IMG/VR virus record: IMGVR_UViG_3300033074_000711
Location: 91,931 to 155,930 of that record
DNA length: 64,000 bases
Origin: a virus
Lineage: Duplodnaviria > Caudoviricetes
Strand: one strand, 5' to 3'
Shown here: piece after piece, positions 2,798-50,788 of the stretch
Numbering within the stretch: the first letter of the stretch is position 1
How the letters are laid out: every line of letters starts with the position of its first letter
Translations under genes and position numbers: made by a program
The notes under the pieces: model-generated
What the model was told of the DNA's origin: nothing
Database searches by the model: none
The model's input: only the letters and a program-made list of their open reading frames with translations

Positions 2798-2815
2798 TTA
2801 AATTAAAGGTGAAAA

Positions 2816-3208: not shown

Positions 3209-3225
3209 TAATGGAAAAATAAATT

Positions 3226-31400: not shown

Positions 31401-31630
31401 CTAATATAGAATTAAAAAATTTATATAATTGTGGGTTAATAACAAATTATACAACCAGTTCGGTCGAAGATTATATTTATAAATTTAGTAATGTTAGTCA
31501 ATCTGGCTTAATCAGTTCTAGTATAAATAATATATTTTCATTTTCAATTTATTCTAGTTTACCAGTAGGTGGTTATATAAACATTTCATATAATAATAAA
31601 ATTTATACAGAATATTTAGATATTGCTTAA
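28463..31630 (+). CDS. large virion structural/tail protein
   Basis: N/S/T/G-rich beta composition; SSVGYKGY, GFLIYSGS, GVGLELHG, LEITGSI.A..G fibre motifs. Confidence 0.55.
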   Translation: MLEKKSNRQYLEKVNVLLEDVDNTIFNITNIPQILYSGNNHFLIYGSDKLKQNSEIAIEILDSNNNTIYYEISKDYNFGGNRLVSIKIFDYVENGLATLTILGILNTNDVEWKNKYNVKTTRKIIVDKTLNNNSDIIFKNFPTASINEVFRTDLNTENSTIYSNYNSGSISTYIATNVKNTNLNYSTMKLVSGSLNEKMLNSKIEIYSGSITHSAIIDRIVNETYCYIKPNYLENDIVKTFDNCNYNIQYINSTYQETFLSSSYAEIVLNNLETLSGKIDKIKVFSKNINRNEDYKLLGDYPLLSWNNYYAWSGSLLIDTGVLKKYWSSYYDNGGLISTNYIITENDNVLLNSIQINTEPHESTAYAYIVNNTPFTVIKGNKYVLEFDRAVLLKDLYNTDCNFKISAYGTSLYNSDETLLYEEYNIDNTVISPTYLGKKFIVFEPNKTGTLFIKFIFGAGTWYLSNLKLYDYFDVGINPNNTKLYIPINNFKRNEQYVFKIEYKNINNLSSQNYSEINLPLNFIGNPKYIQLDDNVLDGKLKIGNNINSNGIEISGKETNGSYISSVGYKGYYSASNNIGDSGFLIYSGSVLNTLTNEYENGVGLELHGGYKSGSMRFKADGLNSFLEITGSIFAENGYFSGLLSASTGHIASFYINETSITSNNNTNTSRFILSQSANIRDIGLHLNDGNNVNRLQIGLVNTTGSKISDYGNIALTSSATNSDNMATLSKWSILDDTTPGIARLDMSSYTLTSASISINSILINELDFIPAGGYLYTNNTNNNFNSVPSGQYILSVKSYQSSGKDRAIFKIIIKDDSDNVLFNSNNYVTNSDEYNLHQFAFTISETKNLRIYYYCSLLSYNSQFYLFDTKIQPYVSRMSITERGLLLSTSPNKYILLSDFFNLIGINEIQTDIIYANKIISDDLVKISINTDNTILNYFNITGSFVDNNNNDISNISAKCFDFWISKKPYGQISTIGTSNIELKNLYNCGLITNYTTSSVEDYIYKFSNVSQSGLISSSINNIFSFSIYSSLPVGGYINISYNNKIYTEYLDIA

Positions 31631-32887: not shown

Positions 32888-33985
32888 GTGAAATTAACAA
32901 GAGAGCAAATAAAGACGCTAAATAGTTATGTTGAAAATGGTTATATAAATAAAAGAAAACACCCAGAGTGTAATTTGTATTTATATAAATATTCGGTTAA
33001 ACAATCTTTTGCACCATATAATGAATGGTGTGAAATAATTAAAATGTGTAGAGGTTTGATATTAACTGAAGATTATAATATTGTTGCAAAACCATTTGAA
33101 AAATTTTTTAATTTACATGAAGAAAATATAAAAGTTGATGAAAGTATATTAAATTATGAATTAATAGAAAAATTAGATGGTTCGTTAATAATAACATATT
33201 TTAATCCAATACTAAATAAATTTGAATGCACAACAACAGGTTCATTTGAATCTGAACAAGCTAAAATGGCGAATGATATTTTAATTAATAATAATATTTA
33301 TGAAAAGTTATATATGTCATATACATATTGTTTTGAGTTAATACATCCAGAAAATAGAATAGTTGTAGATTATGGTGATATAAAAGATGTGATTTTGTTA
33401 GGTGTATTTGATATAAATACTGGCAAAAAGGTTATAGAAAAATTAGATGGTGTAAAAAATCCTAAAAAATATAAATTTAATAATTTAAATGAATTAAATA
33501 ATTTTTTACAAAATTCTAAAAACTTTGAAGGATTTGTAATAGAAACAGACGATAAAAAGTTACATAAATTAAAAACGCAGGAGTACATTAAATTACACTA
33601 TTTAAAAAATCAATTAAATAAAAAATCAGCATTTGATTTATACTATGATAGTTTAGGTTCATTAGAAAGTGTCAAAAATTATGATATACAAGAAATAAAT
33701 GATTATTATTCTAAAGAATTTAAAAACATAAAAAATATTTTAGATAATGAATTAAATATAATAAATGATTTATATAATAAATACATAGAACAAAATTTTA
33801 AAATTATACAAAACTTAACAGAAGTAGAAAAAAATAAACATTTTGCATTATATGTTATAGGAAAAACACCTAAGCAATATCATAGTTTATTATTCGAGTT
33901 TAAAAATAAAAAATCATTTGATAAATTTGCACAAAAAGTATTAAAGTTGTTAATAAAAAATATTTATTTACAGGAGATGAATTAA
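32888..33985 (+). CDS. rnlA: RNA ligase 1 (T4 Rnl1/RnlA-like)
   Basis: CRGLIL, KPFEKFFN, motif I EKLDGS, FEL..PENRIVV.Y, EGFV, KLK..EY. Confidence 0.85.
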   Translation: MKLTREQIKTLNSYVENGYINKRKHPECNLYLYKYSVKQSFAPYNEWCEIIKMCRGLILTEDYNIVAKPFEKFFNLHEENIKVDESILNYELIEKLDGSLIITYFNPILNKFECTTTGSFESEQAKMANDILINNNIYEKLYMSYTYCFELIHPENRIVVDYGDIKDVILLGVFDINTGKKVIEKLDGVKNPKKYKFNNLNELNNFLQNSKNFEGFVIETDDKKLHKLKTQEYIKLHYLKNQLNKKSAFDLYYDSLGSLESVKNYDIQEINDYYSKEFKNIKNILDNELNIINDLYNKYIEQNFKIIQNLTEVEKNKHFALYVIGKTPKQYHSLLFEFKNKKSFDKFAQKVLKLLIKNIYLQEMN

Positions 33986-34872
33986 TGCAATTTATAGAGT
34001 TATTATATGGGTTACCTGGTTCTGGAAAATCTAAATATGCTAAAGAAAAGGTTAGAGAAGATAGTACATATAAAAGAGTTAATAAAGATGATATTAGAGA
34101 ATTGCTGTTTAGTTCAGTTTTTAATAAAGAGAATGAAAAATTAACAATAAACATTAGAGATACATTAATTTATGAATTATTAAATAAAGGTTACAATGTT
34201 ATAGTTGATGATACTAACTTTCCATTTGGTGGTGAACATTATCAAACTATTTGTAATATTGCCAAAAATCATGGTAATGTAATGGTTATTGAAAAATATA
34301 TTGATATTGATTTAGAAACAGCAATAAAAAATAATAAAGGAGAGTTTAGAAAAGAAATACCAGAAAATGTTATTATAAATATGTATAATAAATATATTAA
34401 AAATAAAAATTACCAAACTAGTTCTGTATTTTTCGAAAAAAGTAAAAAGGTTGAAAATAATAGTAACTTACAAAATTGTGTTATTGTAGATATTGATGGT
34501 ACATTAGCTTATAACACTAATAGAAATATTTATGATTATGATAATGTTATAACTGATGATGTTAATAAAAATTTAGTATATTTATTAAATTCTTTACAAA
34601 ATGTTCAAATATTATTATTAACAGGTAGACCAGAAGATTGTAGAAAACAAACCAAAGAATGGTTATATAAAAATAATATCAATTATCATGTTTTATTTAT
34701 GAGAGATATTAATAATAATGAATCAGATTTTATCATAAAGCAAAAAATTTACAATCAATGTATTAAACCATTGTTTAACTGCTTATGTATTTTTGAAGAT
34801 AGGAAAAGAAACATAGATATGTGGCGTGGTATCGGCTTAGAAGCTTATCAAGTTAAATATGGTAATTATTAA
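33985..34872 (+). CDS. pseT: polynucleotide 5'-kinase/3'-phosphatase
   Basis: GLPGSGKS, NKDDIR, VIVDDTN; HAD DIDGT, TGRPE, FEDR. Confidence 0.9.
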   Translation: MQFIELLYGLPGSGKSKYAKEKVREDSTYKRVNKDDIRELLFSSVFNKENEKLTINIRDTLIYELLNKGYNVIVDDTNFPFGGEHYQTICNIAKNHGNVMVIEKYIDIDLETAIKNNKGEFRKEIPENVIINMYNKYIKNKNYQTSSVFFEKSKKVENNSNLQNCVIVDIDGTLAYNTNRNIYDYDNVITDDVNKNLVYLLNSLQNVQILLLTGRPEDCRKQTKEWLYKNNINYHVLFMRDINNNESDFIIKQKIYNQCIKPLFNCLCIFEDRKRNIDMWRGIGLEAYQVKYGNY

Positions 34873-34873
34873 T

Positions 34874-36016
34874 ATGGATTTAAATTATGAATTAAAAAAA
34901 TGGTTTGGTTATGATGAATTTAAAGAATATCAAAAAGAAATAATAAATGATATTTTAAATAAGAAAAATGTTTTAGCCGTATTACCAACGGGTTATGGAA
35001 AATCTCTATGTTATCAATTACCTTCAGTTTTAATAGATGGATTAACATTAGTTATTAGCCCATTATTAAGTTTAATGCAAGACCAAATAGATAAACTAAA
35101 TGAAAGAAATATACCATGTGCAACCTTAAATTCATTTACAGATATAGAAGATAAAAGTATAATAAAGCAAAATTTGAAAGAAAATAAAATAAAAATTTTA
35201 TATATTTCACCTGAATTCTGTCAAAATTTAAGAGTAATAAATTATTTAAAATCATTAAATATTTCACTATTAGTAATAGATGAAGCACATTGTATAACAG
35301 AGTGGGGTTATGATTTTAGACCTTCATATACAAAAACGTTATCACTATTAACAAAAGTATTATCATGTAATTGTTTGGCTGTTACAGCAACAGCAACTAA
35401 AAAAACTAGAGATGATATTAAAAAAATTTTAAGATTTGAAAACTTTTCTGAATATATTGGTAATTTCGATAGACCTAATTTAAATATAAGTGTTATAAAA
35501 AATTTAGATAAGGATGCATTTTTATTAGATTTAATTTCTAATTACAAAAACAAAACAGGTATAATTTATTGCTTATCACAAAAAGATACACATTATTTAA
35601 GCGGTATGTTAAATTCAAATAATATTAAATCTTTACCATATAACGCTGGCATGACAAGAGAAGATAGAATTGATGCTCAAGAAAAGTTTATTAATGATGA
35701 TATTAATGTTATTTGTGCAACAACAGCATTTGGTATGGGTATAGATAAACCTGATATAAGATTTATAATACATCATACATTACCGTTATCAACAGAGAGT
35801 TATTATCAACAAATAGGTAGAGCAGGTAGAGATGGTAAAAAATCAGATTGTATTTTAATATACTCATATAATGATATTAAAAAGGTTATTTGGTTATTGA
35901 ACAGAGGTGCTAATATAAATGATGTTGAATATAAATTATTATTATTTAATAAATTTAAAAATATTGTTGAAAGAGGATTGAAGAGAGAAGATTTATTAAA
36001 CTATTTTAATAATTAA
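34874..36016 (+). CDS. recQ: RecQ-family helicase (helicase core only)
   Basis: LPTGYGKSLCYQLP, ISPLLSLMQDQ, IDEAHCITEWGYDFRP, TATAT, AFGMGIDKPDIR, YYQQIGRAGRDG. Confidence 0.9.
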   Translation: MDLNYELKKWFGYDEFKEYQKEIINDILNKKNVLAVLPTGYGKSLCYQLPSVLIDGLTLVISPLLSLMQDQIDKLNERNIPCATLNSFTDIEDKSIIKQNLKENKIKILYISPEFCQNLRVINYLKSLNISLLVIDEAHCITEWGYDFRPSYTKTLSLLTKVLSCNCLAVTATATKKTRDDIKKILRFENFSEYIGNFDRPNLNISVIKNLDKDAFLLDLISNYKNKTGIIYCLSQKDTHYLSGMLNSNNIKSLPYNAGMTREDRIDAQEKFINDDINVICATTAFGMGIDKPDIRFIIHHTLPLSTESYYQQIGRAGRDGKKSDCILIYSYNDIKKVIWLLNRGANINDVEYKLLLFNKFKNIVERGLKREDLLNYFNN

Positions 36017-36947: not shown

Positions 36948-37213
36948 TAATATATTAATTAAAAAATCATATAAAATGTTATTAAAATATACAATTTTGT
37001 TATATTTACTAATATAAAATGTAGGTTATAGTTAATGATAAAATTCAATAGAATTGGTGATAAAATAATATTATAGTTTTCAAACGTGATAAAACAGTTA
37101 TTAAATTAAAACAACACAGCGATGTTAATCTAAAAACAACAAATTACATGGTGTGTTGGTGTCACCGTCTGTTTTACTGTGAAAATATCAAAAAAATATC
37201 AGTGGAGAAAAAT

Positions 37214-37759
37214 ATGCAGCTAATTAGCAGAAAAGGTAGTTTCGATTCGGGTCACCGTGTAATGAATGAAAAATTCAAGTGTTATAACATCCACGGTCAC
37301 ACGTATTTGTATGAATTAAACTTCGAATTTAACGACATGATGGATATAGGGTATGCTATAGATTTCAAAGAAATCAAGCGAGTAGGGTGCCAGTGGATAG
37401 ACGATTATTTAGACCACGGTATGATACTTAACCCAAAGGACGATCTGTTGATAACCACTGCTAAACAAATGGGTAGTAAATATTGGATAATGTCGTTGAA
37501 CGGGGGTGGGTATTGTAACCCGACAGCAGAAAATATAGCCCGAGAAATTTGTTTAGCTCAGCAAATATTATTTGAAAAACATAATGGATTATATTTTCAT
37601 TCATTACGTTTATATGAAACGCCTAATTGCTGGACTGATTGTTATTTAGGTGAAATAAGTGACAAAGAAAAAGAAAATTTTAATACAGCGAGAAGTCATG
37701 AAATAAGAAAATATGCAGCTGAAAAGGGTATAATAGAATATGATTGCACCAAAATTTAA
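37214..37759 (+). CDS. queD: 6-carboxytetrahydropterin synthase
   Basis: FDSGHRV...CYNIHGHTY, IDFKEIK, LDHG, NPTAEN, LYETPN; GGAG RBS supports start 37214. Confidence 0.85.
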   Translation: MQLISRKGSFDSGHRVMNEKFKCYNIHGHTYLYELNFEFNDMMDIGYAIDFKEIKRVGCQWIDDYLDHGMILNPKDDLLITTAKQMGSKYWIMSLNGGGYCNPTAENIAREICLAQQILFEKHNGLYFHSLRLYETPNCWTDCYLGEISDKEKENFNTARSHEIRKYAAEKGIIEYDCTKI

Positions 37760-37825
37760 AATAACCGTTGGTTTTTATGTAAAATTTTAATATATTTATT
37801 TATCATAAATATAAGTGTGAATTAA

Positions 37826-38347
37826 ATGAAAAAAACAAAAGACATAACTAAATATAATATTGATTGGCAAATAATAAGAGTCTGTGCCAAAAAAATGAAA
37901 ACATGTGAAGAAAAAATCGCAGTATGTGAGCAATATTTTAAAGAAAATATGACAGTTGATAATAAAGAACGGTATATAAATTGGTTAGAAGGGTTGCTGT
38001 TAGGATATAAGGCTTCGAATGATATGCAATCCGTCGACATCATTATTGAAAAAATTGACGAGTCTTATTCGATAAAGTGTAAATCGAAAGAAACCAATCA
38101 AGTGTCTTCAGAGAGTAGTATATTAAAATATGACGATAAACGGCTATCCACTGTGTTCAATGATTTATGTGATAGGAATATCAGATGGCTGAGTAAAGGG
38201 TATTTTAACACAGAATTAAATGAGTTTATCGATAATATACATAAATGTATAAGAGATAAACACGCCGTGAAAAAGAAGAAAGAAAAATTAGACATGATGA
38301 GGTGTAGTAGTAAAAAAATAAAAAATACATATAGTTTTATATATTAA
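37826..38347 (+). CDS. hypothetical protein within que cluster
   Basis: Between queD and queC; late-like motif at 37791. Confidence 0.6.
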   Translation: MKKTKDITKYNIDWQIIRVCAKKMKTCEEKIAVCEQYFKENMTVDNKERYINWLEGLLLGYKASNDMQSVDIIIEKIDESYSIKCKSKETNQVSSESSILKYDDKRLSTVFNDLCDRNIRWLSKGYFNTELNEFIDNIHKCIRDKHAVKKKKEKLDMMRCSSKKIKNTYSFIY

Positions 38348-38357
38348 AGAGGATACC

Positions 38358-39131
38358 ATGAAAAAAAGAGCAGTACTATCAGTTTCAGGGGGGATGGATT
38401 CAACCACTCTCATGATACATATGTTAAATAAAGGTTATAATTTAAGAGTGTTAAGTTTTTTTTACAATCAAAAACACGACATTGAATTGAGCAGGTTAAA
38501 AAATAATATCCTATACTTAAAAAATAAAGGATTTTTCATAGACCATCACACTGTAGACTTATCCTCAGTTATGTCACTGTATGATTCTGCTCTGATAAGA
38601 GGTGGTGTTGATATCCCGGAAGGTCACTATTCATCCGAAAACATGAAGCCCACTGTCGTACCGAACAGAAATGCTATTTTTTCATCGATTGTATACGGAA
38701 TGGCACTGTCAGATGTCAGTAGATTTAATACCCACGTCGATATAGCACTCGGAGTTCATTCAGGGGATCGTGAGATTTATCCAGACTGTCGGCCTGAATT
38801 CTTTGATTCAATCGAGCGTGTGTTTAAGATGGGTAACTGGAAATCAGAAAATGTGTCTTATTATTTACCGTATGTTGGTGTAACAAAATATGAAATATTA
38901 TTAGATGGTAAAACGTGCTGTGATAATCTGAATTTGGATTTTAATACGTTGTATAGTAACACCATCACGTGTTATCAACCTAACAGCACTGGTCGGAGTT
39001 GTGGAAAATGTGGGTCTTGTGTTGAAAGGATTGAGGCATTTTCTAAAATGGGAATTCAAGACCCTATTGAGTATGTAAATAATTGGGATGTTACACAAAA
39101 GCACACAACGAAAATCTTGGGTGAGCTATGA
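38358..39131 (+). CDS. queC: 7-cyano-7-deazaguanine synthase
   Basis: SGGMDS, TVVPNRNAIF, YPDCRPEF, TCY...CGKCGSCVER. Confidence 0.95.
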   Translation: MKKRAVLSVSGGMDSTTLMIHMLNKGYNLRVLSFFYNQKHDIELSRLKNNILYLKNKGFFIDHHTVDLSSVMSLYDSALIRGGVDIPEGHYSSENMKPTVVPNRNAIFSSIVYGMALSDVSRFNTHVDIALGVHSGDREIYPDCRPEFFDSIERVFKMGNWKSENVSYYLPYVGVTKYEILLDGKTCCDNLNLDFNTLYSNTITCYQPNSTGRSCGKCGSCVERIEAFSKMGIQDPIEYVNNWDVTQKHTTKILGEL

Positions 39132-39976
39132 TAATAAATTTAACACCTGATGGTGTATTTCCGATTATATATGATAAAAATGGAGTGTTAATAAATGAGA
39201 TCACAGACACTGGGTATCAAATTCCGGGAACATTACAAGGTGAAGGGGTTTTCAGCGGTATTCCAAGTATTTTTATTAGAACCACAGGGTGTAATTTGAG
39301 ATGTGCGTGGGAAACCCCTGGTGGTGGATCTCCTTGTGATACCCCATACTCGTCGTTCGATCGTGAAATTTTTAAAGCAGAAATCGATGATGTGGTGTCC
39401 ATAGTTCAACAGAATACTGTGAGTGTTAATATAAAACATATTGTGATCACAGGGGGAGAACCAACCATTCAAACGAATGCGTTAGTTGAACTGATTACTA
39501 AATTAAAAAAACATCAGTATATGATAACATTAGAAACCAATGGAACTTTATATAATGATTTTGTTGCTCAAAATGTTGATTTAATCTCATTATCTCCTAA
39601 ATTAAAATCATCTGTTCCTTTAGAGAGTCATTTAATTAATACACCATATAAATTTAATAAAAACATCGCGATTGCGCATGATAAAAAACGAATTAACATA
39701 AATGTATTACAGCAATATATTGACAATTCTATTAATTATCAATTAAAATTTGTAATATCATCTTATGATTATGAAACTGATATAAACGAAATACAAACGA
39801 TTTTACATAAATTAAACAATATAAAAACTGAAAATGTTCTAATAATGCCTGAGGGGTTAATGGTAAGTAAATCCACTGCTCATTATAATAAAGTGGTTCA
39901 ATATGCTATACAACATGGGTATAGGTTTTGCCCTCGAATTCACACGTTTTTATACGGAAATAAAAAAAATGTTTAG
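39128..39976 (+). CDS. queE: 7-carboxy-7-deazaguanine synthase (radical SAM)
   Basis: TLQGEG, FIRTTGCNLRC...CDTPY, ITGGEP, ETNGT, SPKL, PRIH. Confidence 0.9.
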   Translation: MIINLTPDGVFPIIYDKNGVLINEITDTGYQIPGTLQGEGVFSGIPSIFIRTTGCNLRCAWETPGGGSPCDTPYSSFDREIFKAEIDDVVSIVQQNTVSVNIKHIVITGGEPTIQTNALVELITKLKKHQYMITLETNGTLYNDFVAQNVDLISLSPKLKSSVPLESHLINTPYKFNKNIAIAHDKKRININVLQQYIDNSINYQLKFVISSYDYETDINEIQTILHKLNNIKTENVLIMPEGLMVSKSTAHYNKVVQYAIQHGYRFCPRIHTFLYGNKKNV

Positions 39977-39984
39977 GAGGTATT

Positions 39985-40464
39985 ATGTTATTAAATAGCG
40001 ATCAAGTTTTACAATATGTAACAAATGTTCACAAAATTAAACAAAAACAGCAAGTATCCGTAGATTTAACTGTTAAACACATTAATAAAATACAAGGTGG
40101 TTACATCAGTAATGATAGTACACAATTATATGATTATGAAGAAGTTGAACTCGTTAATGGTGTATTTCATTTAAAGCGAGGGTCATACAGTATGACATTT
40201 AATGAGGGGTTAACACCACTACCACCTTCACTGACAGCATTTATTACCCATCGTAGCAGCCTACTCCGAATGGGTGGTATGATATCGAGTGGAATTTTTG
40301 ACCCGGGGTTTTACACAGCAAATCTAGGAGCATGTCTAATGATATTTAATGATGATATTAAAATTGAAATCAACAGCAGGGTTGCCACAATATTTATAAC
40401 AGAAAATATACCAACACAAAATATTTATAACGGCCAGTGGCAGGGTGTTTTAGATAAAAAATAA
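39985..40464 (+). CDS. dCTP deaminase / trimeric dUTPase family
   Basis: VDLT, RSSLLRMG, FDPGF, YNGQWQ. Confidence 0.8.
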   Translation: MLLNSDQVLQYVTNVHKIKQKQQVSVDLTVKHINKIQGGYISNDSTQLYDYEEVELVNGVFHLKRGSYSMTFNEGLTPLPPSLTAFITHRSSLLRMGGMISSGIFDPGFYTANLGACLMIFNDDIKIEINSRVATIFITENIPTQNIYNGQWQGVLDKK

Positions 40465-40488
40465 TAATAATAATATAAGGATATACAT

Positions 40489-41457
40489 ATGAAAAATTTA
40501 CCGGATATGCAAAGCACTCAAACAGGGTTTCCTAAAATCCCAATCGAAAAAGTTGGAGTGAGAGGAATAGTAGTCCCCATCACATTATATAAAAAGAGTG
40601 GTGGGCTGTTTTCAACCACAGCAACTGTTAGTTCATACTGCTCACTGGTTGAAAATATAAAAGGGATAAATATGTCAAGGATTTCTCGAACGATTAATGA
40701 TGTATTATCTAAACAACCACATAATATTGGATTCGTTAATTTAAACGAATTTGTAACAGAGCTTAAACATGCACACGGAGCGGATGACGTATATATAAAA
40801 GCTGAATTCAAATACTTAATGGAGTTAGTTTCTCCAGTGACACAGTTACCTTCATACGAACCTGTTGATGTTATAATGGAAAGTGTTTTAAAAACAATAG
40901 ATAATGTAAGTGTGTTAAAAACATATTTAACTGTGTCTTCCACTGAGATGTCATTATGCCCATGTTCGAAAGAAATGTCATCTTTAATGAATAATTTAAA
41001 TGAGAGTGAGCTCGAAGAGATATCAAAATTATCACAACACACTGTAAATAAATTAAAACTGTCAGGGTTTGGTGCCCACAATCAAAAATCTAATATAACA
41101 GTCACAGTTGAATCTGATAAAATATTTTATATAGAAGATCTGGTGGATATAATAAAACAAAGTTCTTCATGCCCTACGTTTATTGTATTAAAACGACCTG
41201 ATGAAAAATGGGTAACTGAGGTGAGTTACACGGGTGGGTATTTTGACGACAGTAAATCGTTTGTTAAAGTCGGTAGTGAAGATCAATACGGTCCAAAATT
41301 TGTCGAAGATATTTCTCGATTAATAGCTGAGAAATTAAATAAATTGTTAGACAATGAAATTAATGATTATGTCATTGTTGTAAATAATGAAGAAAGTATT
41401 CACTCGGGTGATTTACAAGCAACCTCAATATTAACAGCTGGCAGATATTTAAAATAA
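40489..41457 (+). CDS. folE2: GTP cyclohydrolase IB
   Basis: LPDMQ, IEKVGV, KGINMSR, SLCPCSKEMS, GAHNQKS, LKRPDEKWVT, PKFVED, EESIH. Confidence 0.9.
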   Translation: MKNLPDMQSTQTGFPKIPIEKVGVRGIVVPITLYKKSGGLFSTTATVSSYCSLVENIKGINMSRISRTINDVLSKQPHNIGFVNLNEFVTELKHAHGADDVYIKAEFKYLMELVSPVTQLPSYEPVDVIMESVLKTIDNVSVLKTYLTVSSTEMSLCPCSKEMSSLMNNLNESELEEISKLSQHTVNKLKLSGFGAHNQKSNITVTVESDKIFYIEDLVDIIKQSSSCPTFIVLKRPDEKWVTEVSYTGGYFDDSKSFVKVGSEDQYGPKFVEDISRLIAEKLNKLLDNEINDYVIVVNNEESIHSGDLQATSILTAGRYLK

Positions 41458-41471
41458 TTTCGAAATAACCG

Positions 41472-41495
41472 AAAGACTCTCACAGAGAGTCTTTT
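41472..41495 (+). terminator. intrinsic terminator
   Basis: aaagactctc-aca-gagagtcttt hairpin with T tail. Confidence 0.7.
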
Positions 41496-41534
41496 GATAA
41501 TAATATAATTTAATAACTTTAATAACAAAATAAT

Positions 41535-42365
41535 ATGAAAATATCACATGAAGTACCATATACACTGATGAATGAATCTCTTGAATTTAACGATTATGAT
41601 TACGCACTAGTTCATTTATTTGAACAAAATGAAAATTATTTTCAATTTTATTATGACTCGATTCATAAACGAAATCGAGTTGTTTTAATAGATAATAGCG
41701 TTTTTGAATTGGGAAAGGCGTTTGATACTCATAAATTCATTGACCAACTCTTCAGAATAAACCCGACGAATACTACTGAATTTGTTATCCCTGATAGCTT
41801 GAGTGACATGCGTTCGACGTTACGGCAAATGGATGAGTTTTTAAAAATACTACCTAAAGACGTGAAAGGTAAAAAAATAGGAGTTGTGCAAGGAAACTCC
41901 AAAGAAGATATTATAACATGCTATAAACATATGTCAGAAGATTATCGCGTTGATAAAATCGCGATTAATTTTACAAATGACGTGATGTCACAATTTATAC
42001 CAATTAATGTTCGGTTAAATAAATCTTCCCGTTATTTATCCATACGCGGTCGATATTATTTTATAAAATATTTAATAGAAAATGATTTGATCAATAATAA
42101 AAAACCACATCACTTACTAGGATGTGTGTTACCTCAGGAATTTTCATTTTATAAAGACAAGAAGCGATATGGGTTTATAGAGTCCTGTGACACATCAAAC
42201 CCAGTTGTCCACGGAATTCACGGAATTAAATATTCCGATAATGGATTGGAAGAAAAATTAAATATAAAATTAGTTGACATAATATCCACACCAATGGATG
42301 TTATTGATCGTTTTCGTCATATTATATACCATAATATATACACATTTAAACAATTTTGTGAGTAA
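41535..42365 (+). CDS. TGT/DpdA-like TIM-barrel protein (candidate 7-deazaguanine transglycosylase)
   Basis: IDNSVFE, VIPD, GVVQG, HHLLG, SCDTS parallel the TGT barrel motifs; in que cluster. Confidence 0.55.
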   Translation: MKISHEVPYTLMNESLEFNDYDYALVHLFEQNENYFQFYYDSIHKRNRVVLIDNSVFELGKAFDTHKFIDQLFRINPTNTTEFVIPDSLSDMRSTLRQMDEFLKILPKDVKGKKIGVVQGNSKEDIITCYKHMSEDYRVDKIAINFTNDVMSQFIPINVRLNKSSRYLSIRGRYYFIKYLIENDLINNKKPHHLLGCVLPQEFSFYKDKKRYGFIESCDTSNPVVHGIHGIKYSDNGLEEKLNIKLVDIISTPMDVIDRFRHIIYHNIYTFKQFCE

Positions 42366-42370
42366 ACAAC

Positions 42371-42937
42371 ATGAACAAATATATTAAAATAGGGTTAACA
42401 GGTATTCACTCTTCAGGGAAAACCACAGTATTTAATGAATTGAAGCGGTTAGAAGCATTTGAAAAGTTTTCGTTTATAGACGGACCTGCTCGCAAATTAA
42501 AAAACGAAGGGATAAATATAAATGAAGCAGCAGATGATGTGGCGCAGGTTATGCTGGTTAATCGGACAGTCGAAGGTATATTTAAACCGGGTAACACGGT
42601 TTCCGACAGGACTTTGATTGACGCGATGGCATACACTGAATGTTTATTTGGTATGAATAAAATATCAAAAAATGTACATGATTATGTGTCTCTTATATTT
42701 AACCAATATATAAATACTTATGATGTGATATTTATATCAAAACCTGAATTTAATATGGTGGATGACGGTGTGAGGAGTACTGATATTGAGTTTTATAATA
42801 AATCTAATGAGGCGTTTGAATATTATTATGAGAAATGTAGTGAGATTATACCAAATAAATTAATCAGATTATCAGGAACTGTTAAAAATCGAGTTGATAT
42901 AATAATAAATTCATTAAAGTTACTAAATTTATTTTAA
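42371..42937 (+). CDS. P-loop nucleotide kinase (AAA_28/NadR-like)
   Basis: GIHSSGKTT, SDRTLID..AY, DDGVR. Confidence 0.7.
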   Translation: MNKYIKIGLTGIHSSGKTTVFNELKRLEAFEKFSFIDGPARKLKNEGININEAADDVAQVMLVNRTVEGIFKPGNTVSDRTLIDAMAYTECLFGMNKISKNVHDYVSLIFNQYINTYDVIFISKPEFNMVDDGVRSTDIEFYNKSNEAFEYYYEKCSEIIPNKLIRLSGTVKNRVDIIINSLKLLNLF

Positions 42938-46076: not shown

Positions 46077-46292
46077 ATGTCAGATGAATTTTTTAATTTT
46101 ATGTTAGTTCAAAATGGTGTTAAAATAAAATTAACAAAAAATCATGTGGTTTTATATTGTTTTGAAAAAGATGCATCAATTTGGTTAAATGAAAAAAGTA
46201 ATAATGAGGATATACATTTATTTTTAAGATTATGTAGTTGTGATAATGAGTATATATTTGAAGAAATTAAAAAATTAATAGGAAATTTATGA
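46077..46292 (+). CDS. hypothetical protein
   Basis: Overlaps glf start. Confidence 0.5.
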   Translation: MSDEFFNFMLVQNGVKIKLTKNHVVLYCFEKDASIWLNEKSNNEDIHLFLRLCSCDNEYIFEEIKKLIGNL

Positions 46293-47413
46293 AAGTACAT
46301 ATAATAGGTGCTGGTATAAGTGGATTAACAGTGGCAAATAAATTAAGTGGTATAACGAAGGATATTTTTATATATGATTCTAGAGAACATGTCGGTGGTA
46401 ACTGTTATTCTTATATTGATGAAAAAACAAATATAGAAGTACATAAATACGGGCCGCATATATTCCATACTAGTAATGATGTTGTAAAAAGTTTTTTAAA
46501 CGGGTTAGATATAAAATTTAATAATTATATTCATAAAGTAAAAGTATATAACAATCTTTCATATTATTCATTTCCATATAACAAATTAACACATAATCAA
46601 ATTTATGACGGTATTAATAATTGTTTTGTTGTTAAAGAACCAACATCCGCTAAAAATTTTGAAGATTATTTAATACAAAAAATAGGAAAACGTGCATATA
46701 GTATTTTATACAAATATTATACTAGAAAGCAATGGGGTGTTAGCGGAGATGAACTTCCAGTAGAAATTGCTAAGAGAATACCAATTAGAAATAATTTTAT
46801 AGATGATTATTTTGATGATGATTTGCAGGGTATTCCAATTGGTGGTTATTCTAAAATATTTGAAAGTTTATTAAAAAACATAAATAAAGAAAATATAATA
46901 CTAAATAAAAAAATAGATTTTAACTTTATTAAACAAAAATTAAAAGAAGGTGATATTTGCGTTTACACAGGTTCATTAGATGACTTAATAATATTACAAA
47001 ACAAATTGCAATATCGTTCTTTAGATTTTGTTTTTAAAACAGTTGATATAAGTAAAACAATAGGGTGTGCACAATTAAACTTTGCGGATATTGGTACGGT
47101 TACTAGAGTAACAGATTTTTTATATTTTGATTATAATAAAAATAAAAATAGTAAAAAAACAATATTGTGTTATGAATTTCCAAAGGAATGTATATTAAGT
47201 GATGAAAAATATTATCCTATAAATAATATAAAAAATGATAAAGTTTATGAAGAATATTTAAAAACATTATATGATAATAATAAGTTATATAACTCTGATA
47301 ATTTATTTTTATGCGGTAGATTAGCAGATTATAAATACTATAATATGGATATGGCTATGTACAAAGCAATATTATTAGCAGAAAAAATACAGGAAAAAAT
47401 TAAATGGAGTTAA
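46289..47413 (+). CDS. glf: UDP-galactopyranose mutase
   Basis: GAGISG, HVGGNCY, VHKYGPHIFHT, YTRKQWG, QGIPIGGY, YRSL, YYP, GRLADYKYYNMD. Confidence 0.9.
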   Translation: MKVHIIGAGISGLTVANKLSGITKDIFIYDSREHVGGNCYSYIDEKTNIEVHKYGPHIFHTSNDVVKSFLNGLDIKFNNYIHKVKVYNNLSYYSFPYNKLTHNQIYDGINNCFVVKEPTSAKNFEDYLIQKIGKRAYSILYKYYTRKQWGVSGDELPVEIAKRIPIRNNFIDDYFDDDLQGIPIGGYSKIFESLLKNINKENIILNKKIDFNFIKQKLKEGDICVYTGSLDDLIILQNKLQYRSLDFVFKTVDISKTIGCAQLNFADIGTVTRVTDFLYFDYNKNKNSKKTILCYEFPKECILSDEKYYPINNIKNDKVYEEYLKTLYDNNKLYNSDNLFLCGRLADYKYYNMDMAMYKAILLAEKIQEKIKWS

Positions 47414-47414
47414 G

Positions 47415-48221
47415 ATGTCAAATGTACTAAATATATTATATAGAATAAGTGATGCTGGTTATAAAAAAGAAAAACCAGAATATATAAATAATATTAATTG
47501 TTTAAAAAATTTTATTGAAAGTATAGGGTTAAATCCATATGAGAAAATTTATATAAATGTGTTTTTAGATAACTGCTCATATGAAACGAAAAAACTTGTT
47601 ACAGATTTTTTAGAAATTTATGTTTATGAAAATTTTACATGTGATATTTCATATTTAGATAAATATTTTGAATTTCACACACATGACATTAAATGTGGCT
47701 CTAGTGCTAAATCATTTAAACATGTTTTTGATTTTGTATTAAATTATTTAGATGATGATACACATGTTTATTTTGTTGAAAATGATTATTTACATAAATC
47801 AAATTTTCAAGAAATAATATTTGACGCAATAAAAAATTTAAAAGCAAATTACGTAACTTTATACGACCATCCAGATAAATATATTTATGGTGCAAATCCT
47901 GAAGTTAAACAAGATGGTGGTGAAATAACTAAAGTTTACTTAGGTAAAAATTGCCATTTTAAATTAACTAATAGTACGACCATGACATTTGCAACTACAG
48001 TTATTCAGTTAAAAAAAGATTATGATGTTATTAATAAATATATTAGTGAAGATTATCCGCAAGATTATTTAATGTTCAAAGAATTAATAAAAATACATAA
48101 AAGGTCATTATTATCACCTATACCTGGATATTCAACACACGGTGAAACAAAATGGTTATCACCTTTAACAAATTGGCAAAAAATTGGAGAAAAAGATGTC
48201 AAAAAGGAAATGTTGTTTTAA
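47415..48221 (+). CDS. glycosyltransferase (GT-A fold)
   Basis: YFVENDYLH, YDHPDKY, STTMTF, PIPGYSTH. Confidence 0.65.
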   Translation: MSNVLNILYRISDAGYKKEKPEYINNINCLKNFIESIGLNPYEKIYINVFLDNCSYETKKLVTDFLEIYVYENFTCDISYLDKYFEFHTHDIKCGSSAKSFKHVFDFVLNYLDDDTHVYFVENDYLHKSNFQEIIFDAIKNLKANYVTLYDHPDKYIYGANPEVKQDGGEITKVYLGKNCHFKLTNSTTMTFATTVIQLKKDYDVINKYISEDYPQDYLMFKELIKIHKRSLLSPIPGYSTHGETKWLSPLTNWQKIGEKDVKKEMLF

Positions 48222-48516
48222 TTGTGAATTTTTTCCTCATGAAGATTATGATTACGATGTATCTATAAAAGGAAAAAGCAGAGATAATTACTATTGCAAA
48301 AATATTAGAGTATTGCATTCTAAAAAAACAAAAGAAACTCAAATAGAACCAAGTAGAACTGAATTTGATTTTGAAACTGCAGTTTTATGCAATGAGCGAA
48401 ATAAAAATTATGATTGTGATAGATATAAAAGTGCATTAGGTTGTGTGTATGTTTTTTATACATTTGCAATATTTATAATAACAATATTATTCCTTAATTT
48501 TATAGGTTCAATTTAA
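48196..48516 (+). CDS. Cys-rich protein with C-terminal TM helix
   Basis: CFNC...C..RNKNYDC; GGAG RBS. Confidence 0.5.
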   Translation: MSKRKCCFNCEFFPHEDYDYDVSIKGKSRDNYYCKNIRVLHSKKTKETQIEPSRTEFDFETAVLCNERNKNYDCDRYKSALGCVYVFYTFAIFIITILFLNFIGSI

Positions 48517-49332
48517 ATGTTTAAAGTTTCCATTATAATACCCTCTTATAATAGACCTGATGCACTTGATAAGTGTTTAGGGTCTATTTTTTATAAAAAT
48601 GAATTAAAAAACATTGATATTATAGTATATATTGATGGTAATATTGGTTTATTTAGTTCTGTTATGACAAGATATGAGAATAAAGTAAAATTTATAAAAA
48701 ATCAAAAAAATTATGGATTAGCAACAGCAATTAATATATCAGCGTATAAATCTGATAGTGATTTTTTATTAGTTGTTAATGATGATAATGTATTTCCCAT
48801 AAATTTTGATACAAAACTACATAAATTATTATTAGATAATGGTTTAAGTAAAACATGTGTAACAATAAATCAAATTGAAAGAACACGAAGTATATATAAA
48901 AATATTAAAATATATGATTGCGGTGATGTTGATAATTTTAATTTTGATTTATTTAATAACATTAATGAAGGTTATTCTGATGATGGACTATTCGATTATG
49001 GTGGTGGATTGTTTCCGTTTTTAATATCAAAAAAGAATTTTATGATAGTTAATGGCTTTGATATTGCTTATAATAGCCCATATATTATGGACTGGGATTT
49101 TTTTCTAAAGTTGGAATTAAATGATATAAAAATGAGATTAAGTAAATATTTTCATTTATATCATTTTGGTAGTTTGAGTACAAAAAATAATGGAGATAAA
49201 TTTGTAGTAAATGATATGATAATTAAAGAACAAAATGCTATTAAATATTTTAAATACAAATGGAATACAAATCCTGAATTAGGAATAAATAATACAAAAA
49301 TAAATAAATACTTACAAACAAAATATAGGTGA
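48517..49332 (+). CDS. glycosyltransferase family 2
   Basis: VSIIIPSYNR, NYGLATAIN, VNDD, GFD, DWDF. Confidence 0.85.
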   Translation: MFKVSIIIPSYNRPDALDKCLGSIFYKNELKNIDIIVYIDGNIGLFSSVMTRYENKVKFIKNQKNYGLATAINISAYKSDSDFLLVVNDDNVFPINFDTKLHKLLLDNGLSKTCVTINQIERTRSIYKNIKIYDCGDVDNFNFDLFNNINEGYSDDGLFDYGGGLFPFLISKKNFMIVNGFDIAYNSPYIMDWDFFLKLELNDIKMRLSKYFHLYHFGSLSTKNNGDKFVVNDMIIKEQNAIKYFKYKWNTNPELGINNTKINKYLQTKYR

Positions 49333-50711: not shown

Positions 50712-50717
50712 TAAATA

Positions 50718-50788
50718 ACAACCATCATTTAATTGGATAGGATCTACATTCAGGTGTAGTATAAGAGTTCGAATCTCTTCGGTTGTTA
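50718..50788 (+). tRNA. degenerate tRNA-like element (anticodon loop TTCAGG; identity unclear)
   Basis: Acceptor acaacc/ggttgt, D-loop AATTGGATA, stem ctaca/tgtag, perfect T-arm aagag-TTCGAAT-ctctt; about 3 nt short of canonical. Confidence 0.55.

What the first reader, a model, noticed from the sequence alone, without database searches (positions are those of the whole stretch)
37140..42937. Recently acquired 7-deazaguanine island using FolE2
Seen: queD-orf-queC-queE-dcd/dut-folE2-(terminator)-TGT-like-kinase, with visibly higher GC/CpG than the flanks. Known: GCH-I, QueD, QueE and QueC make preQ0, and phages insert it into DNA to block restriction. The phage clusters I know mostly use FolE (type IA) rather than FolE2. 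No QueF, ArcS or Gat-QueC is in the window. Inference: a preQ0-level (or novel derivative) DNA modification module imported as a block.
Basis: partly seen in the sequence, partly recalled or inferred. Interest (0 to 1): 0.8.

Follow-up and report, generated by a model that had tools for sequence, protein, structure and literature searches.

The report
Imported DpdA3 deazaguanine DNA-modification island
A very AT-rich uncultured large phage has recently taken in, as one block, eight genes of a known kind (DpdA3 type) that should replace the guanine in its DNA with a 7-deazaguanine; its older genes instead avoid the restriction site GATC, so the phage appears to have been caught changing how it escapes restriction.

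Summary
Window 37148-42937 carries eight same-strand genes: QueD, a 173-aa unknown (orf2), QueC, QueE, a Dcd/Dut-like protein, FolE2, a hairpin, a TGT-fold protein and a P-loop kinase.

- **Island.** GC3 is 0.27 against 0.125 for the other 188 ORFs. CpG o/e is 1.07 against 0.67. GATC occurs 11 times in 5.8 kb against 10 times in the other 150 kb. This supports recent import as a block.
- **TGT-like gene.** It belongs to the published DpdA3 family (44% identity to Campylobacter phage CP220 gp056, 41% to Flavobacterium phage immuto DpdA3). That family is linked to 100% G replacement.
- **FolE2.** It is absent from cultured phage clusters but not rare: 4 of 80 sampled DpdA3 viral loci have it, and 57 of 80 sampled viral FolE2 loci sit near QueE.
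- **Final base.** No QueF or formyltransferase is on the 156-kb contig. I infer dPreQ0, less likely dADG.
- **orf2.** It is a new basic all-helical family, found only in QueF-less DpdA3 clusters and usually just upstream of QueC.
- **Kinase and Dut-like gene.** These hint at a nucleotide-level route. This scan has already raised that idea on at least 11 other genomes.

Verdict: a new variant of a known kind.

The parts
37148..37759 (+). QueD (6-carboxytetrahydropterin synthase), 203 aa
   Evidence: PF01242 92.5 bits, phrog_2389 E 4e-26. It has the QueD signature CxxxHGH (CYNIHGH at residue 45), not the DpdL form LxxxHRH. GC3 0.33.
37826..38347 (+). orf2: 173-aa basic all-helical protein of unknown function, an accessory of QueF-less DpdA3 clusters
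   Evidence: No Pfam, PHROG or NCBIfam family. AF2 pLDDT 91, eight helices, no informative fold match. The family has 223 representatives at 50% identity. It lies directly upstream of QueC here and in L027, L082, L097 and L100, and no orf2 locus has QueF or DpdN. pI 9.1.
38358..39131 (+). QueC (7-cyano-7-deazaguanine synthase type), 257 aa, no amidotransferase domain
   Evidence: PF06508 162.5 bits. PP-loop SGGMDS and a Cys cluster (C205, C215, C218, C221). It is 47% identical to immuto QueC and 37% to CP220 QueC*.
39128..39976 (+). QueE-like radical SAM enzyme (7-carboxy-7-deazaguanine synthase), 282 aa
   Evidence: phrog_2076 E 1e-48. PF04055 37 bits. The best NCBIfam models are all QueE but fall below their cut-offs. 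The start overlaps the QueC stop.
39985..40464 (+). Dcd/Dut-superfamily protein, 159 aa: a second, divergent copy beside the backbone dUTPase
   Evidence: PF22769 34.5 bits; NF002598 91 bits, below its cut-off of 130. The closest solved structure is an archaeal-type dUTPase, 9w59, E 2e-11. The backbone has its own canonical dUTPase at G000:73606-74052. Homologues sit in other DpdA3 clusters: L007, L008, L010, L100, L190, L239.
40489..41457 (+). FolE2 (GTP cyclohydrolase IB), 322 aa, of a roughly 320-aa subfamily
   Evidence: PF02649 194 bits. NF010200 176 bits, below its equivalog cut-off of 215. The CPCS, HNQ and ESIH motifs align with solved FolE2 structures 2r5r and 3d2o. The nearest proteins are 52-60% identical, including viral contig L027 at 56%.
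41472..41494 (+). Perfect 10-bp hairpin (AAAGACTCTC-ACA-GAGAGTCTTT) followed by a short T run: a terminator-like or RNA-processing site between the synthesis genes and the DpdA3-kinase pair
   Evidence: Sequence read directly. The scan lists it, formally on the minus strand because it is a palindrome.
41535..42365 (+). DpdA3-family 7-deazaguanine transglycosylase, 276 aa
   Evidence: phrog_19058 E 1e-56. 44% identity to CP220 gp056 and 41% to the annotated DpdA of phage immuto. AF2 pLDDT 91. Foldseek top 50 are all TGTs (prob 1.0, E 7e-7). VIA-align gives ArcTGT Z 17.3, DpdA 7ui4 Z 16.5 and TGT Z 15.3, against 13.5 or less for generic TIM barrels.
42371..42937 (+). P-loop nucleoside/nucleotide-kinase-like protein, 188 aa, the conserved partner of DpdA3
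   Evidence: phrog_2107 E 4e-28; PF13521 37.7 bits. The family profile hits the NadR ribosylnicotinamide kinase domain, deoxynucleoside kinases and thymidylate kinase in the PDB (E 2e-6 to 6e-3). It lies within 4 kb of DpdA3 in 34 of 41 viral loci that have enough flank. It is adjacent to DpdA3 in CP220 and 686 bases downstream in immuto, with a small ORF and DpdN between them.

Best explanation
The block is a self-contained, horizontally acquired DpdA3-type module for modifying the phage genome with a 7-deazaguanine.

- **Synthesis (inferred from family membership and intact motifs).** FolE2 opens GTP to dihydroneopterin triphosphate. QueD makes CPH4. QueE makes 7-carboxy-7-deazaguanine. QueC converts that to preQ0, possibly stopping at the amide ADG.
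- **Insertion (by homology only).** The DpdA3 transglycosylase puts this base in place of guanine. In all three DpdA3 phages with measured DNA the replacement is complete.
- **Nucleotide enzymes.** DpdA3 travels with a nucleoside/nucleotide-kinase-fold protein and, here, with a second Dcd/Dut-like dNTP-cleaving enzyme. I therefore lean, at about even odds, to part of the pathway running on free (deoxy)nucleotides. In that scheme dGTP is cut down, the base is exchanged on a nucleoside or nucleotide, the kinase re-phosphorylates the product and the polymerase incorporates it. The published model instead has exchange only on finished DNA.
- **Expected product.** No QueF or DpdN is present, so I expect dPreQ0 (about 55%), dADG (about 20%) or another derivative, perhaps orf2-dependent (about 25%).
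- **Evolution.** The backbone had adapted to restriction by purging GATC (o/e 0.04) and GAATTC. The island is not purged, so its sites need the protection the island itself provides.

The confidence given (0.8) is for the identity of the module and its import as a block, not for the nucleotide-level step or the exact base.
For: Gene identities and motifs.

DpdA3 membership:
- tblastn against CP220 and immuto, E 1e-51 to 2e-55.
- Annotation as DpdA in immuto.
- AF2 model with TGT-superfamily matches.
- 100% replacement in CP220, phiST and immuto, as reported in PMC10516641.

Block import:
- GC3 0.27 against 0.125; CpG o/e 1.07 against 0.67.
- GATC 11 in 5.8 kb against 10 in 150 kb; Markov o/e 0.69 against 0.04; Poisson P 5e-13.
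- Island GC of 0.31 lies inside the range of DpdA3 viral loci (0.28-0.47, median 0.35).

Pathway end: no QueF or formyltransferase on the contig, with a positive control.

Nucleotide-level lean:
- The kinase lies within 4 kb of DpdA3 in 34 of 41 loci.
- Its family profile matches only small-molecule nucleoside/nucleotide kinases among full-length hits.
- The island Dut-like gene duplicates a function the backbone already has through a canonical dUTPase.
- Other DpdA3 phages carry a different dNTP hydrolase in the same place: an HD domain in CP220 and a MazG or dimeric dUTPase in phiST.
- The DpdA3 family is acidic, median pI 5.3.
- ADG nucleoside was reported in CP220-infected cells (PMC10516641).
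Against: - No chemistry: the DNA of this uncultured phage has not been analysed, so modification, its level and the base are all inferred.
- DpdA3 activity has never been reconstituted. Cui et al. failed to do so in E. coli.
- The published reading is post-replicative exchange on DNA. Every solved relative of DpdA3 acts on a polymer (tRNA, DNA or a protein N-terminus).
- The kinase could be an ATPase helper, as DpdB is for bacterial DpdA. The Dut-like protein could be a plain dUTPase that came along with the block.
- FolE2, QueD, QueC, QueE and the Dut-like protein all score below NCBIfam equivalog cut-offs, so they are divergent. QueE lacks the canonical CxxxCxxC spacing.
- No donor closer than 49-60% identity was found, so 'recent' is relative. 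No close backbone relatives were found to show the empty site.
- The contig is about 67% complete, so a QueF could lie on the missing part.
Confidence: 0.8

Rival explanations
1. Same module, working purely after replication as published. DpdA3 exchanges G for preQ0 or ADG on finished phage DNA. The P-loop protein is an ATP-driven helper, a functional analogue of DpdB, or an unrelated dNMP kinase. The Dut-like gene is ordinary dUTP sanitation.
For: - Every characterised TGT-superfamily enzyme acts on a polymer. The nearest folds are ArcTGT, DNA preQ0 insertase DpdA 7ui4 and TGT.
- Cui et al. 2023 propose post-replicative insertion for all DpdA families.
- 7 of 41 well-flanked DpdA3 loci lack the kinase within 4 kb.
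- Dut-like genes are found in only about 4% of sampled DpdA3 loci.
Against: - Complete (100%) replacement is hard to reach by base exchange on packaged-length DNA. DpdA1, DpdA2 and bDpdA reach 30% or less.
- The kinase family resembles nucleoside/nucleotide kinases, not ParB-like DpdB.
- The backbone already has a dUTPase and a paralogous kinase.
- A dNTP hydrolase of three unrelated folds recurs beside DpdA3.
Confidence: 0.4
2. The module makes dADG, as in Campylobacter phage CP220, not dPreQ0. QueC would stop at the amide, perhaps with orf2 influencing the outcome.
For: - The gene set (QueC, no QueF, DpdA3, adjacent kinase) matches CP220, whose DNA carries 100% dADG.
- orf2 sits directly upstream of QueC in five independent QueF-less clusters.
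Against: - This QueC is closer to the QueC of preQ1-level phages, which must make preQ0 (47% to immuto; 45-49% to QueF-linked loci), than to CP220 QueC* (37%).
- CP220 has no orf2.
- orf2 has no invariant Cys, His or Asp that would suggest catalysis.
Confidence: 0.2
3. The genes are an auxiliary metabolic set that boosts host queuosine-tRNA or folate/pterin supply and does not modify DNA.
For: FolE2, QueD, QueE and QueC are the same enzymes bacteria use for tRNA queuosine. FolE2 also feeds folate (PMC5699537).
Against: - A DpdA3 homologue is in the same operon-like block. That family is known only from phages with fully modified DNA.
- No QueF, QueA, QueG or bacterial-type TGT is present.
- The unpurged GATC sites in the island fit a self-protecting DNA modification.
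Confidence: 0.04
4. The compositional contrast is not horizontal transfer. It would reflect amino-acid constraint or high expression of conserved enzymes, or an assembly chimera.
For: - Conserved enzymes in AT-rich genomes tend to be GC-richer at codon positions 1 and 2.
- Another GC-richer stretch exists at 887-5004.
- The record is a metagenome assembly.
Against: - The excess is at synonymous sites: GC3 is 2-5 SD above the backbone in all eight genes, including the poorly conserved orf2.
- Equally conserved neighbours (PhoH, DEAD helicase, PNK, RNA ligase) have GC3 of 0.10-0.14.
- The CpG and GATC contrasts do not depend on protein constraint.
- Backbone composition resumes on both sides, on the same strand, with boundaries in intergenic spacers. 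A chimeric join would not give that.
Confidence: 0.04

Closest known systems
Campylobacter phage CP220 (Firehammervirus) dADG system: QueC*, DpdA3 (gp056), 'thymidylate kinase' gp057, HD/P-loop gp055
   Same: - DpdA3 homologue, 44% identical.
- The same kinase family directly downstream, 36% identical.
- A QueC-terminal pathway without QueF.
- A dNTP-hydrolase-type gene beside DpdA3.
- An AT-rich myovirus-sized genome.
   Different: - In CP220 the genes are scattered: QueC* lies about 45 kb from DpdA3. Here they form one compact 5.8-kb island.
- The neighbouring CP220 hydrolase gene is an HD-domain/P-loop fusion, not a Dcd/Dut fold.
- CP220 has no orf2 and gave no tblastn match to this FolE2.
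- CP220 QueC* is only 37% identical.
[quoted passage not shown]
   Same: It has the closest cultured-phage QueC (47%), a DpdA3 at 41%, the same kinase family near DpdA3, and complete G replacement measured by LC-MS.
   Different: - immuto continues to preQ1 and formylates it (QueF, DpdN). Both genes are absent here.
- immuto uses FolE, not FolE2.
- immuto has no orf2.
- An immuto-like viral contig (L073) has FolE2 exactly where immuto has FolE. This shows the swap happening in place.
Uncultured viral contig IMGVR_UViG_3300020048_000078 (L027/L186)
   Same: It has the same parts list apart from the Dut-like gene: QueD, QueE, DpdA3, kinase, orf2, QueC and a FolE2 of the same subfamily (56% identity). 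It has no QueF or DpdN within reach.
   Different: - The gene order differs: DpdA3-kinase-orf2-QueC-FolE2.
- Its QueC is only 28% identical and its orf2 only 25%.
- No Dut-like gene was detected.
- It is not a close donor.
Bacterial Dpd system (DpdA/DpdB/DpdC; DNA preQ0 insertase, PDB 7ui4)
   Same: TGT-fold base-exchange enzyme using a preQ0-pathway product. It is the second-best structural match (Z 16.5, 226 residues aligned).
   Different: - Only 15% identical.
- The bacterial enzyme is about 410 aa, needs the ParB-like ATPase DpdB and modifies under 0.1% of G.
- The protein here is 276 aa, belongs to a mostly acidic family and is paired with a nucleoside/nucleotide-kinase-fold protein.
Pre-replicative base-replacement modules: T4 dCTPase + dCMP hydroxymethylase + dNMP kinase; Z-genome DatZ/MazZ/PurZ (from my own knowledge)
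   Same: The logic is the same: a canonical-dNTP hydrolase, a base- or nucleotide-converting enzyme and a kinase, encoded together in phages whose DNA is 100% substituted.
   Different: There is no homology between the converting enzymes. No TGT-fold enzyme is known to act on a free nucleotide. This is an analogy, not membership.

Membership tests
DpdA3 subfamily of 7-deazaguanine transglycosylases (Cui, Hutinet et al. 2023) | Sequence homology to the founding members (CP220 gp056, immuto DpdA; phiST CGPG_00065) | tested here: met
   tblastn gives 44% identity over 91% of the length to CP220 (E 1e-51) and 41% over 100% to immuto (E 2e-55). phrog_19058 E 1e-56. phiST itself was not recovered by tblastn.
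DpdA3 subfamily of 7-deazaguanine transglycosylases (Cui, Hutinet et al. 2023) | TGT-type TIM-barrel fold | tested here: met
   AF2 pLDDT 91. Foldseek top 50 are all TGTs (prob 1.0, TM 0.62-0.65). VIA-align gives ArcTGT Z 17.3 (rmsd 3.2, 234 aligned), DpdA Z 16.5 and TGT Z 15.3, against 13.5 or less for other TIM barrels.
DpdA3 subfamily of 7-deazaguanine transglycosylases (Cui, Hutinet et al. 2023) | Encoded together with 7-deazaguanine synthesis genes | tested here: met
   FolE2, QueD, QueE and QueC lie in the same 5.8-kb block.
DpdA3 subfamily of 7-deazaguanine transglycosylases (Cui, Hutinet et al. 2023) | Catalytic aspartates equivalent to those of TGT or DpdA | tested here: inconclusive
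   All family-invariant residues are kept, including D53, D87, D140 and D219 in DTSNP. I could not make a residue-level superposition on TGT catalytic residues.
DpdA3 subfamily of 7-deazaguanine transglycosylases (Cui, Hutinet et al. 2023) | Complete replacement of dG in virion DNA | not testable with these tools
   The phage is uncultured, so no DNA chemistry is available.
GTP cyclohydrolase IB (FolE2) | Family profile match and conserved active-site motifs | tested here: met
   PF02649 193.9 bits (cut-off 25). The CPCS, GAHNQ and ESIH motifs align with solved FolE2 structures 2r5r and 3d2o.
GTP cyclohydrolase IB (FolE2) | NCBIfam equivalog score (NF010200, cut-off 215 bits) | tested here: not met
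   176 bits, with MptA second at 130 bits. It belongs to a divergent subfamily of about 320 aa. Four GTDB genomes carry it at 47-56% identity and the other relatives kept are at most 31% identical; several viral contigs also carry it. Classical FolE2 genes in other DpdA3 loci pass the cut-off with 254-274 bits.
QueD (CPH4 synthase) as opposed to DpdL (CDG decarboxylase paralogue) | CxxxHGH motif with the catalytic Cys (DpdL has LxxxHRHxF) | tested here: met
   CYNIHGH at residues 45-51. No LxxxHRH motif.
QueC (preQ0 synthase) as opposed to Gat-QueC or QueC* | PP-loop SGGxDS, Zn-binding Cys cluster, no glutamine amidotransferase domain; nitrile-forming second step | tested here: inconclusive
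   SGGMDS and the Cys cluster (C205, C215, C218, C221) are present, and at 257 aa there is no extra domain. Whether it stops at ADG cannot be read from sequence. It is closer to preQ0-making QueCs than to CP220 QueC*.
QueE (CDG synthase) | Radical-SAM cluster motif and QueE family score | tested here: inconclusive
   phrog_2076 E 1e-48, and the five best NCBIfam models are all QueE, but every one is below its cut-off (87 against 206 bits). The Cys spacing is C-x3-C then about 10 residues to the next Cys, not CxxxCxxC.
Nucleoside/nucleotide kinase fold (dNK, TMPK, NadR-RNK) | P-loop plus substrate-site motifs; profile similarity to solved kinases | tested here: met
   GIHSSGKT P-loop. Family-invariant Q59, D79-R80, D84 and R135. 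Profile hits to NadR RNK (E 2e-6), deoxynucleoside kinase (3e-6), thymidylate kinase (7e-5) and dGK (6e-3). The substrate is unknown.
dUTPase/dCTP deaminase superfamily | Family profile match; specificity for dUTP | tested here: inconclusive
   PF22769 34.5 bits (cut-off 27). PF00692 is below its cut-off. NF002598 scores 91 against a cut-off of 130. The fold family is met but specificity is unknown. A canonical dUTPase exists elsewhere on the contig.

The most novel reading that the evidence does not exclude
DpdA3 systems, this one included, do not edit finished DNA. They build the modified base as a free deoxynucleotide. The Dcd/Dut-like enzyme would cut down dGTP. The minimal, acidic DpdA3 barrel would exchange guanine for preQ0 on a (deoxy)nucleoside or nucleotide. 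The dedicated kinase would re-phosphorylate the product, and the polymerase would write a 100% dPreQ0 genome, a state not yet reported. orf2 would be a new accessory of the QueC-terminal branch. [quoted passage not shown]
Probability: 0.4. Interest if true: 0.8.

Novelty: new variant of a known kind. Interest (0 to 1): 0.5.

Why it matters
- **A dated switch of strategy.** The old backbone escaped restriction by deleting GATC and GAATTC sites. The newly imported island still carries those sites and brings chemical protection instead. This gives a natural before-and-after for how fast site avoidance relaxes once a base is replaced.
- **A compact test object.** The island holds the whole QueF-less DpdA3 route, with FolE2, a Dut-like enzyme, a kinase and an unknown accessory, in 5.8 kb. 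That makes it convenient for the open questions about DpdA3: what its substrate is, how it reaches 100% replacement, and whether the kinase marks a pre-replicative route.
- **A literature gap.** FolE2-based phage 7-deazaguanine clusters are common in metagenomes, but the papers I could search do not mention them.

Tried and rejected
- **DNA-level relatives.** blastn of the island against 50,697 phage records found nothing.
- **Close relatives in IMG/VR.** Searches with the DpdA3 protein, the DEAD helicase and PhoH found none, or only 32-37% PhoH matches. I therefore could not check whether relatives lack the block.
- **orf2.** No family in Pfam, NCBIfam or PHROGs. Foldseek against PDB and BFVD, VIA-align wide (only generic helical bundles, Z 8.8 or less) and the ESM Atlas gave nothing usable.
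- **orf2 as an obligatory part of QueF-less clusters: rejected.** L188, L189 and L190 have FolE2, DpdA3, the kinase and QueC but no orf2, even by HMM search.
- **The single PTPS-family gene as DpdL: rejected** on the CxxxHGH motif.
- **FolE2 as a rarity in phages: rejected**.
- **TCGA purge.** It mostly disappears under a Markov expectation (o/e 0.77), so I cite only GATC and GAATTC.
- **Names for the nearest FolE2 clusters.** None were on record.
- **Literature.** I found no paper on the DpdA3 mechanism after 2023.

Full report
**Setting.** The window is the last 64 kb of a linear IMG/VR virus contig of 155,930 b. CheckV puts it at about 67% complete, so the genome is probably over 200 kb. 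It is extremely AT-rich, about 22% GC. Nearly all window genes lie on the + strand.

**Observation.**
- Eight consecutive + strand ORFs fill 37148-42937. Family scans identify them as follows:
  - QueD: PF01242, 92 bits.
  - A 173-aa ORF with no family (orf2).
  - QueC: PF06508, 162 bits.
  - A QueE-like radical SAM enzyme: phrog_2076, E 1e-48.
  - A Dcd/Dut-superfamily protein: PF22769, 34.5 bits.
  - FolE2: PF02649, 194 bits.
  - A 276-aa ORF matching only phrog_19058.
  - A P-loop protein: phrog_2107 'thymidylate kinase', PF13521.
- A perfect 10-bp hairpin followed by a short T run sits between FolE2 and the 276-aa ORF, at 41472-41494.
- Motifs are intact:
  - QueD has CxxxHGH, so it is QueD and not the decarboxylase paralogue DpdL described in PMC10516641.
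  - QueC has SGGMDS and its Cys cluster.
  - FolE2 has CPCS, HNQ and ESIH, aligned with solved FolE2 structures.

**The island is real and imported.**
- I computed codon-position GC for 196 non-overlapping ORFs of the contig. All eight island genes have GC3 of 0.22-0.33. The other 188 ORFs average 0.125 (sd 0.036; Mann-Whitney p 3e-6).
- The conserved neighbours PhoH, DEAD helicase, PNK and RNA ligase have GC3 of 0.10-0.14. Protein constraint therefore does not explain the contrast.
- CpG o/e is 1.07 in the island against 0.67 genome-wide.
- Another first-reader note on this genome (e1-5752747) pointed to GATC, and I tested it.
  - The island holds 11 GATC in 5.8 kb (Markov expectation 15.8).
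  - The remaining 150 kb holds 10 (expectation 276; o/e 0.04).
  - The Poisson probability of 11 or more at the backbone rate is 5e-13.
  - GAATTC behaves alike, with o/e 0.33 in the backbone against 1.76 in the island.
- Backbone composition resumes on both sides, with boundaries in AT-rich spacers. This argues against a chimeric join.
- Island GC (0.31) lies within the range of other DpdA3-bearing viral loci (0.28-0.47).
- No donor is close. The best identities are 49% for DpdA3, 53% for QueC, 60% for FolE2 and 42% for orf2.

**The TGT-like gene is DpdA3.**
- tblastn finds it in Campylobacter Firehammerviruses (CP220 gp056, 44%) and in Flavobacterium phage immuto (41%), where it is annotated as DNA guanine transglycosylase DpdA.
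- Cui, Hutinet et al. (NAR 2023, PMC10516641) named this subfamily DpdA3. They report complete G replacement in CP220 (dADG), phiST (dDG) and immuto (fdPreQ1).
- Sequence profiles do not reach any solved structure.
- An AlphaFold model (pLDDT 91) hits only tRNA-guanine transglycosylases by Foldseek: top 50, probability 1.0.
- A non-redundant VIA-align search ranks ArcTGT (Z 17.3), DNA preQ0 insertase DpdA 7ui4 (Z 16.5), TGT (Z 15.3), QTRT2 (Z 14.7) and Cap10 (Z 13.9). Generic TIM barrels score 13.5 or less.
- The family is large: 2,895 proteins in the word-indexed search and at least 567 IMG/VR loci.

**Census of 80 DpdA3 viral loci.**

| Gene near DpdA3 | Loci (of 80) |
|---|---|
| FolE | 63 |
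| FolE2 | 4 (never together with FolE) |
| QueF | 65 |
| DpdN | 69 |
| Kinase | about 60 |
| Dut-like | 3 |
| orf2 | 4 |

- Most uncultured DpdA3 clusters are therefore of the immuto (fdPreQ1) type. This island belongs to the minority that stops at QueC.
- Among 41 loci with at least 4 kb on both sides of DpdA3, 34 have the kinase within 4 kb.

**FolE2.**
- Cultured phages have no real FolE2 homologue. Cui 2023 never mentions FolE2. The 2016 review mentions it only as the bacterial alternative to FolE.
- A profile scan of IMG/VR nevertheless finds at least 259 viral FolE2 loci. Of 80 sampled, 57 have QueE within 8 kb, 48 have QueD, 19 have DpdA3 and none has FolE.
- Two kinds occur in DpdA3 clusters.
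  - Classical FolE2 (L024, L062, L073) scores 254-274 bits against the equivalog cut-off of 215.
  - A divergent subfamily of about 320 aa (this window, L027) scores 176-180 bits.
- In L073, FolE2 sits exactly where the syntenic immuto cluster has FolE.
- In GTDB species genomes only four records carry the 320-aa subfamily at 47-56% identity, and every other relative kept is at most 31% identical. The four are a Bacilli MAG, a Clostridia MAG, one unnamed bacterium and Clostridium subterminale. The Bacilli MAG copy lies in a QueE-QueD-FolE2 row on a 26.6% GC contig, and the same MAG holds DpdA3-DpdN elsewhere. That is probably a binned phage.
- FolE2 is thus a repeated non-orthologous displacement, not a peculiarity of this phage.

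**Which base.**
- tblastn and Pfam searches find no QueF and no formyltransferase on the contig, while both are found in the immuto control.
- This QueC is nearer to QueCs that must make preQ0 (immuto 47%; QueF-linked loci 45-49%) than to CP220 QueC* (37%).
- I infer dPreQ0 as most likely and dADG second.
- A missing QueF on the unassembled third of the genome cannot be excluded.

**orf2.**
- It is a confident all-helical model (pLDDT 91) with no informative structural or family match.
- An exhaustive profile search finds 223 representatives, all stand-alone proteins of about 140-185 aa.
- It is basic (pI 9.1), whereas the DpdA3 family is mostly acidic: median pI 5.3, although the window's own copy is near neutral at 6.8.
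- Its invariant residues are W, Q, R, K, N, Y, G and F. There is no invariant Cys, His or Asp.
- In viral contigs it lies next to DpdA3 and the kinase, and directly upstream of QueC, in the window and in L027, L082, L097 and L100. None of about eight distinct orf2-plus-DpdA3 contigs has QueF or DpdN.
- One of those contigs is 94% complete and lacks both genes genome-wide.
- CP220 and immuto lack orf2.
- It is not obligatory. L188-L190 are QueF-less and have no orf2.
- Its function remains unknown. I would guess a binding or scaffolding role tied to QueC or to the preQ0-level product.

**Mechanism.**
- Shown: gene identities, DpdA3 membership, block import and the conserved DpdA3-kinase linkage.
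- Inferred: activity, product and level of replacement.
- The kinase family profile matches NadR ribosylnicotinamide kinase, deoxynucleoside kinases, thymidylate kinase and dGK. It keeps a dNK-like set of invariant residues.
- Cui 2023 does not mention any kinase.
- The island Dut-like gene is a second copy, since the backbone has a canonical dUTPase.
- Other DpdA3 phages hold an unrelated dNTP hydrolase at the same place: an HD domain in CP220 and a MazG or dimeric dUTPase in phiST.
- Three further facts bear on this: replacement is 100% in the measured phages, the DpdA3 barrel is small and its family mostly acidic, and ADG nucleoside was reported in CP220-infected cells. With the kinase and hydrolase evidence, I put roughly even odds on a nucleotide-level step.
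- This scan has already raised the same idea for DpdA3-kinase pairs in at least 11 other genomes and on this stretch (e1-5752748). It is not specific to this window, and those notes are not independent evidence.

**Verdict.**
- This is a known kind of system (DpdA3 7-deazaguanine replacement) in a new variant: QueC-terminal, FolE2-based, and with orf2 and a Dut-like gene.
- Its main value is the unusually clean signature of recent import into a backbone that had relied on GATC avoidance.
- No step had to be referred.

Noticed in passing
window 60890-61675 and 62079-62807: The backbone has a paralogue of the island kinase: 29% identical, with weak dNK and thymidylate-kinase Pfam hits and an 80-aa N-terminal extension. 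Two genes downstream lies an N6/N4 DNA methylase (PF01555, 176 bits). In 89 Streptomyces phage records the same kinase family matches; in nearly all of the rows shown it overlaps or abuts a gene annotated as methyltransferase.
   Followed up: partly
G000:C1:73606-74052 (minus strand; outside the window): The backbone carries a canonical dUTPase (PF00692, 65.6 bits summed). The island Dcd/Dut-like gene is therefore a second, divergent copy.
   Followed up: partly
window 2755-4032: Four of the ten GATC sites outside the island cluster here, in the GC-richer stretch 887-5004 (GC 0.29-0.35; ORF 887-2797 has GC3 0.23). This may be a second, older import.
   Followed up: no
window 32888-36016: T4-type RNA ligase (PF09511), polynucleotide kinase-phosphatase (PF25109) and a DEAD-box helicase lie in a row just upstream of the island. 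This looks like an RNA-repair set of the kind that counters anticodon nucleases.
   Followed up: no
window 50717-50788: ARAGORN calls a 72-nt tRNA-like gene with an undetermined identity and an odd anticodon loop ('tRNA-???').
   Followed up: no
window 46289-49332: UDP-galactopyranose mutase (PF03275, 156 bits) and a family-2 glycosyltransferase are encoded in the phage backbone.
   Followed up: no
L073:3376-4395 (IMGVR_UViG_3300025102_003667): In a cluster otherwise syntenic with phage immuto (66-76% protein identity), a classical FolE2 (274 bits) occupies the exact slot where immuto has FolE. This is a clean in-place non-orthologous displacement.
   Followed up: partly
L105 and L185 (MAG 'Bacilli bacterium' JAZNJG01): A bacterial MAG holds a 26.6% GC contig with QueE-QueD-FolE2 (FolE2 56% identical to the window's) followed by a SPASM radical-SAM gene. 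Another contig holds DpdA3-formyltransferase-GNAT. This is probably phage DNA binned into the MAG, and a possible hint at a Bacilli host range for such phages.
   Followed up: partly
window 25348-31630: Two very long ORFs of 1040 and 1055 aa. The first has an N-terminal calcineurin-like phosphoesterase domain and looks SbcD/SbcC-like.
   Followed up: no
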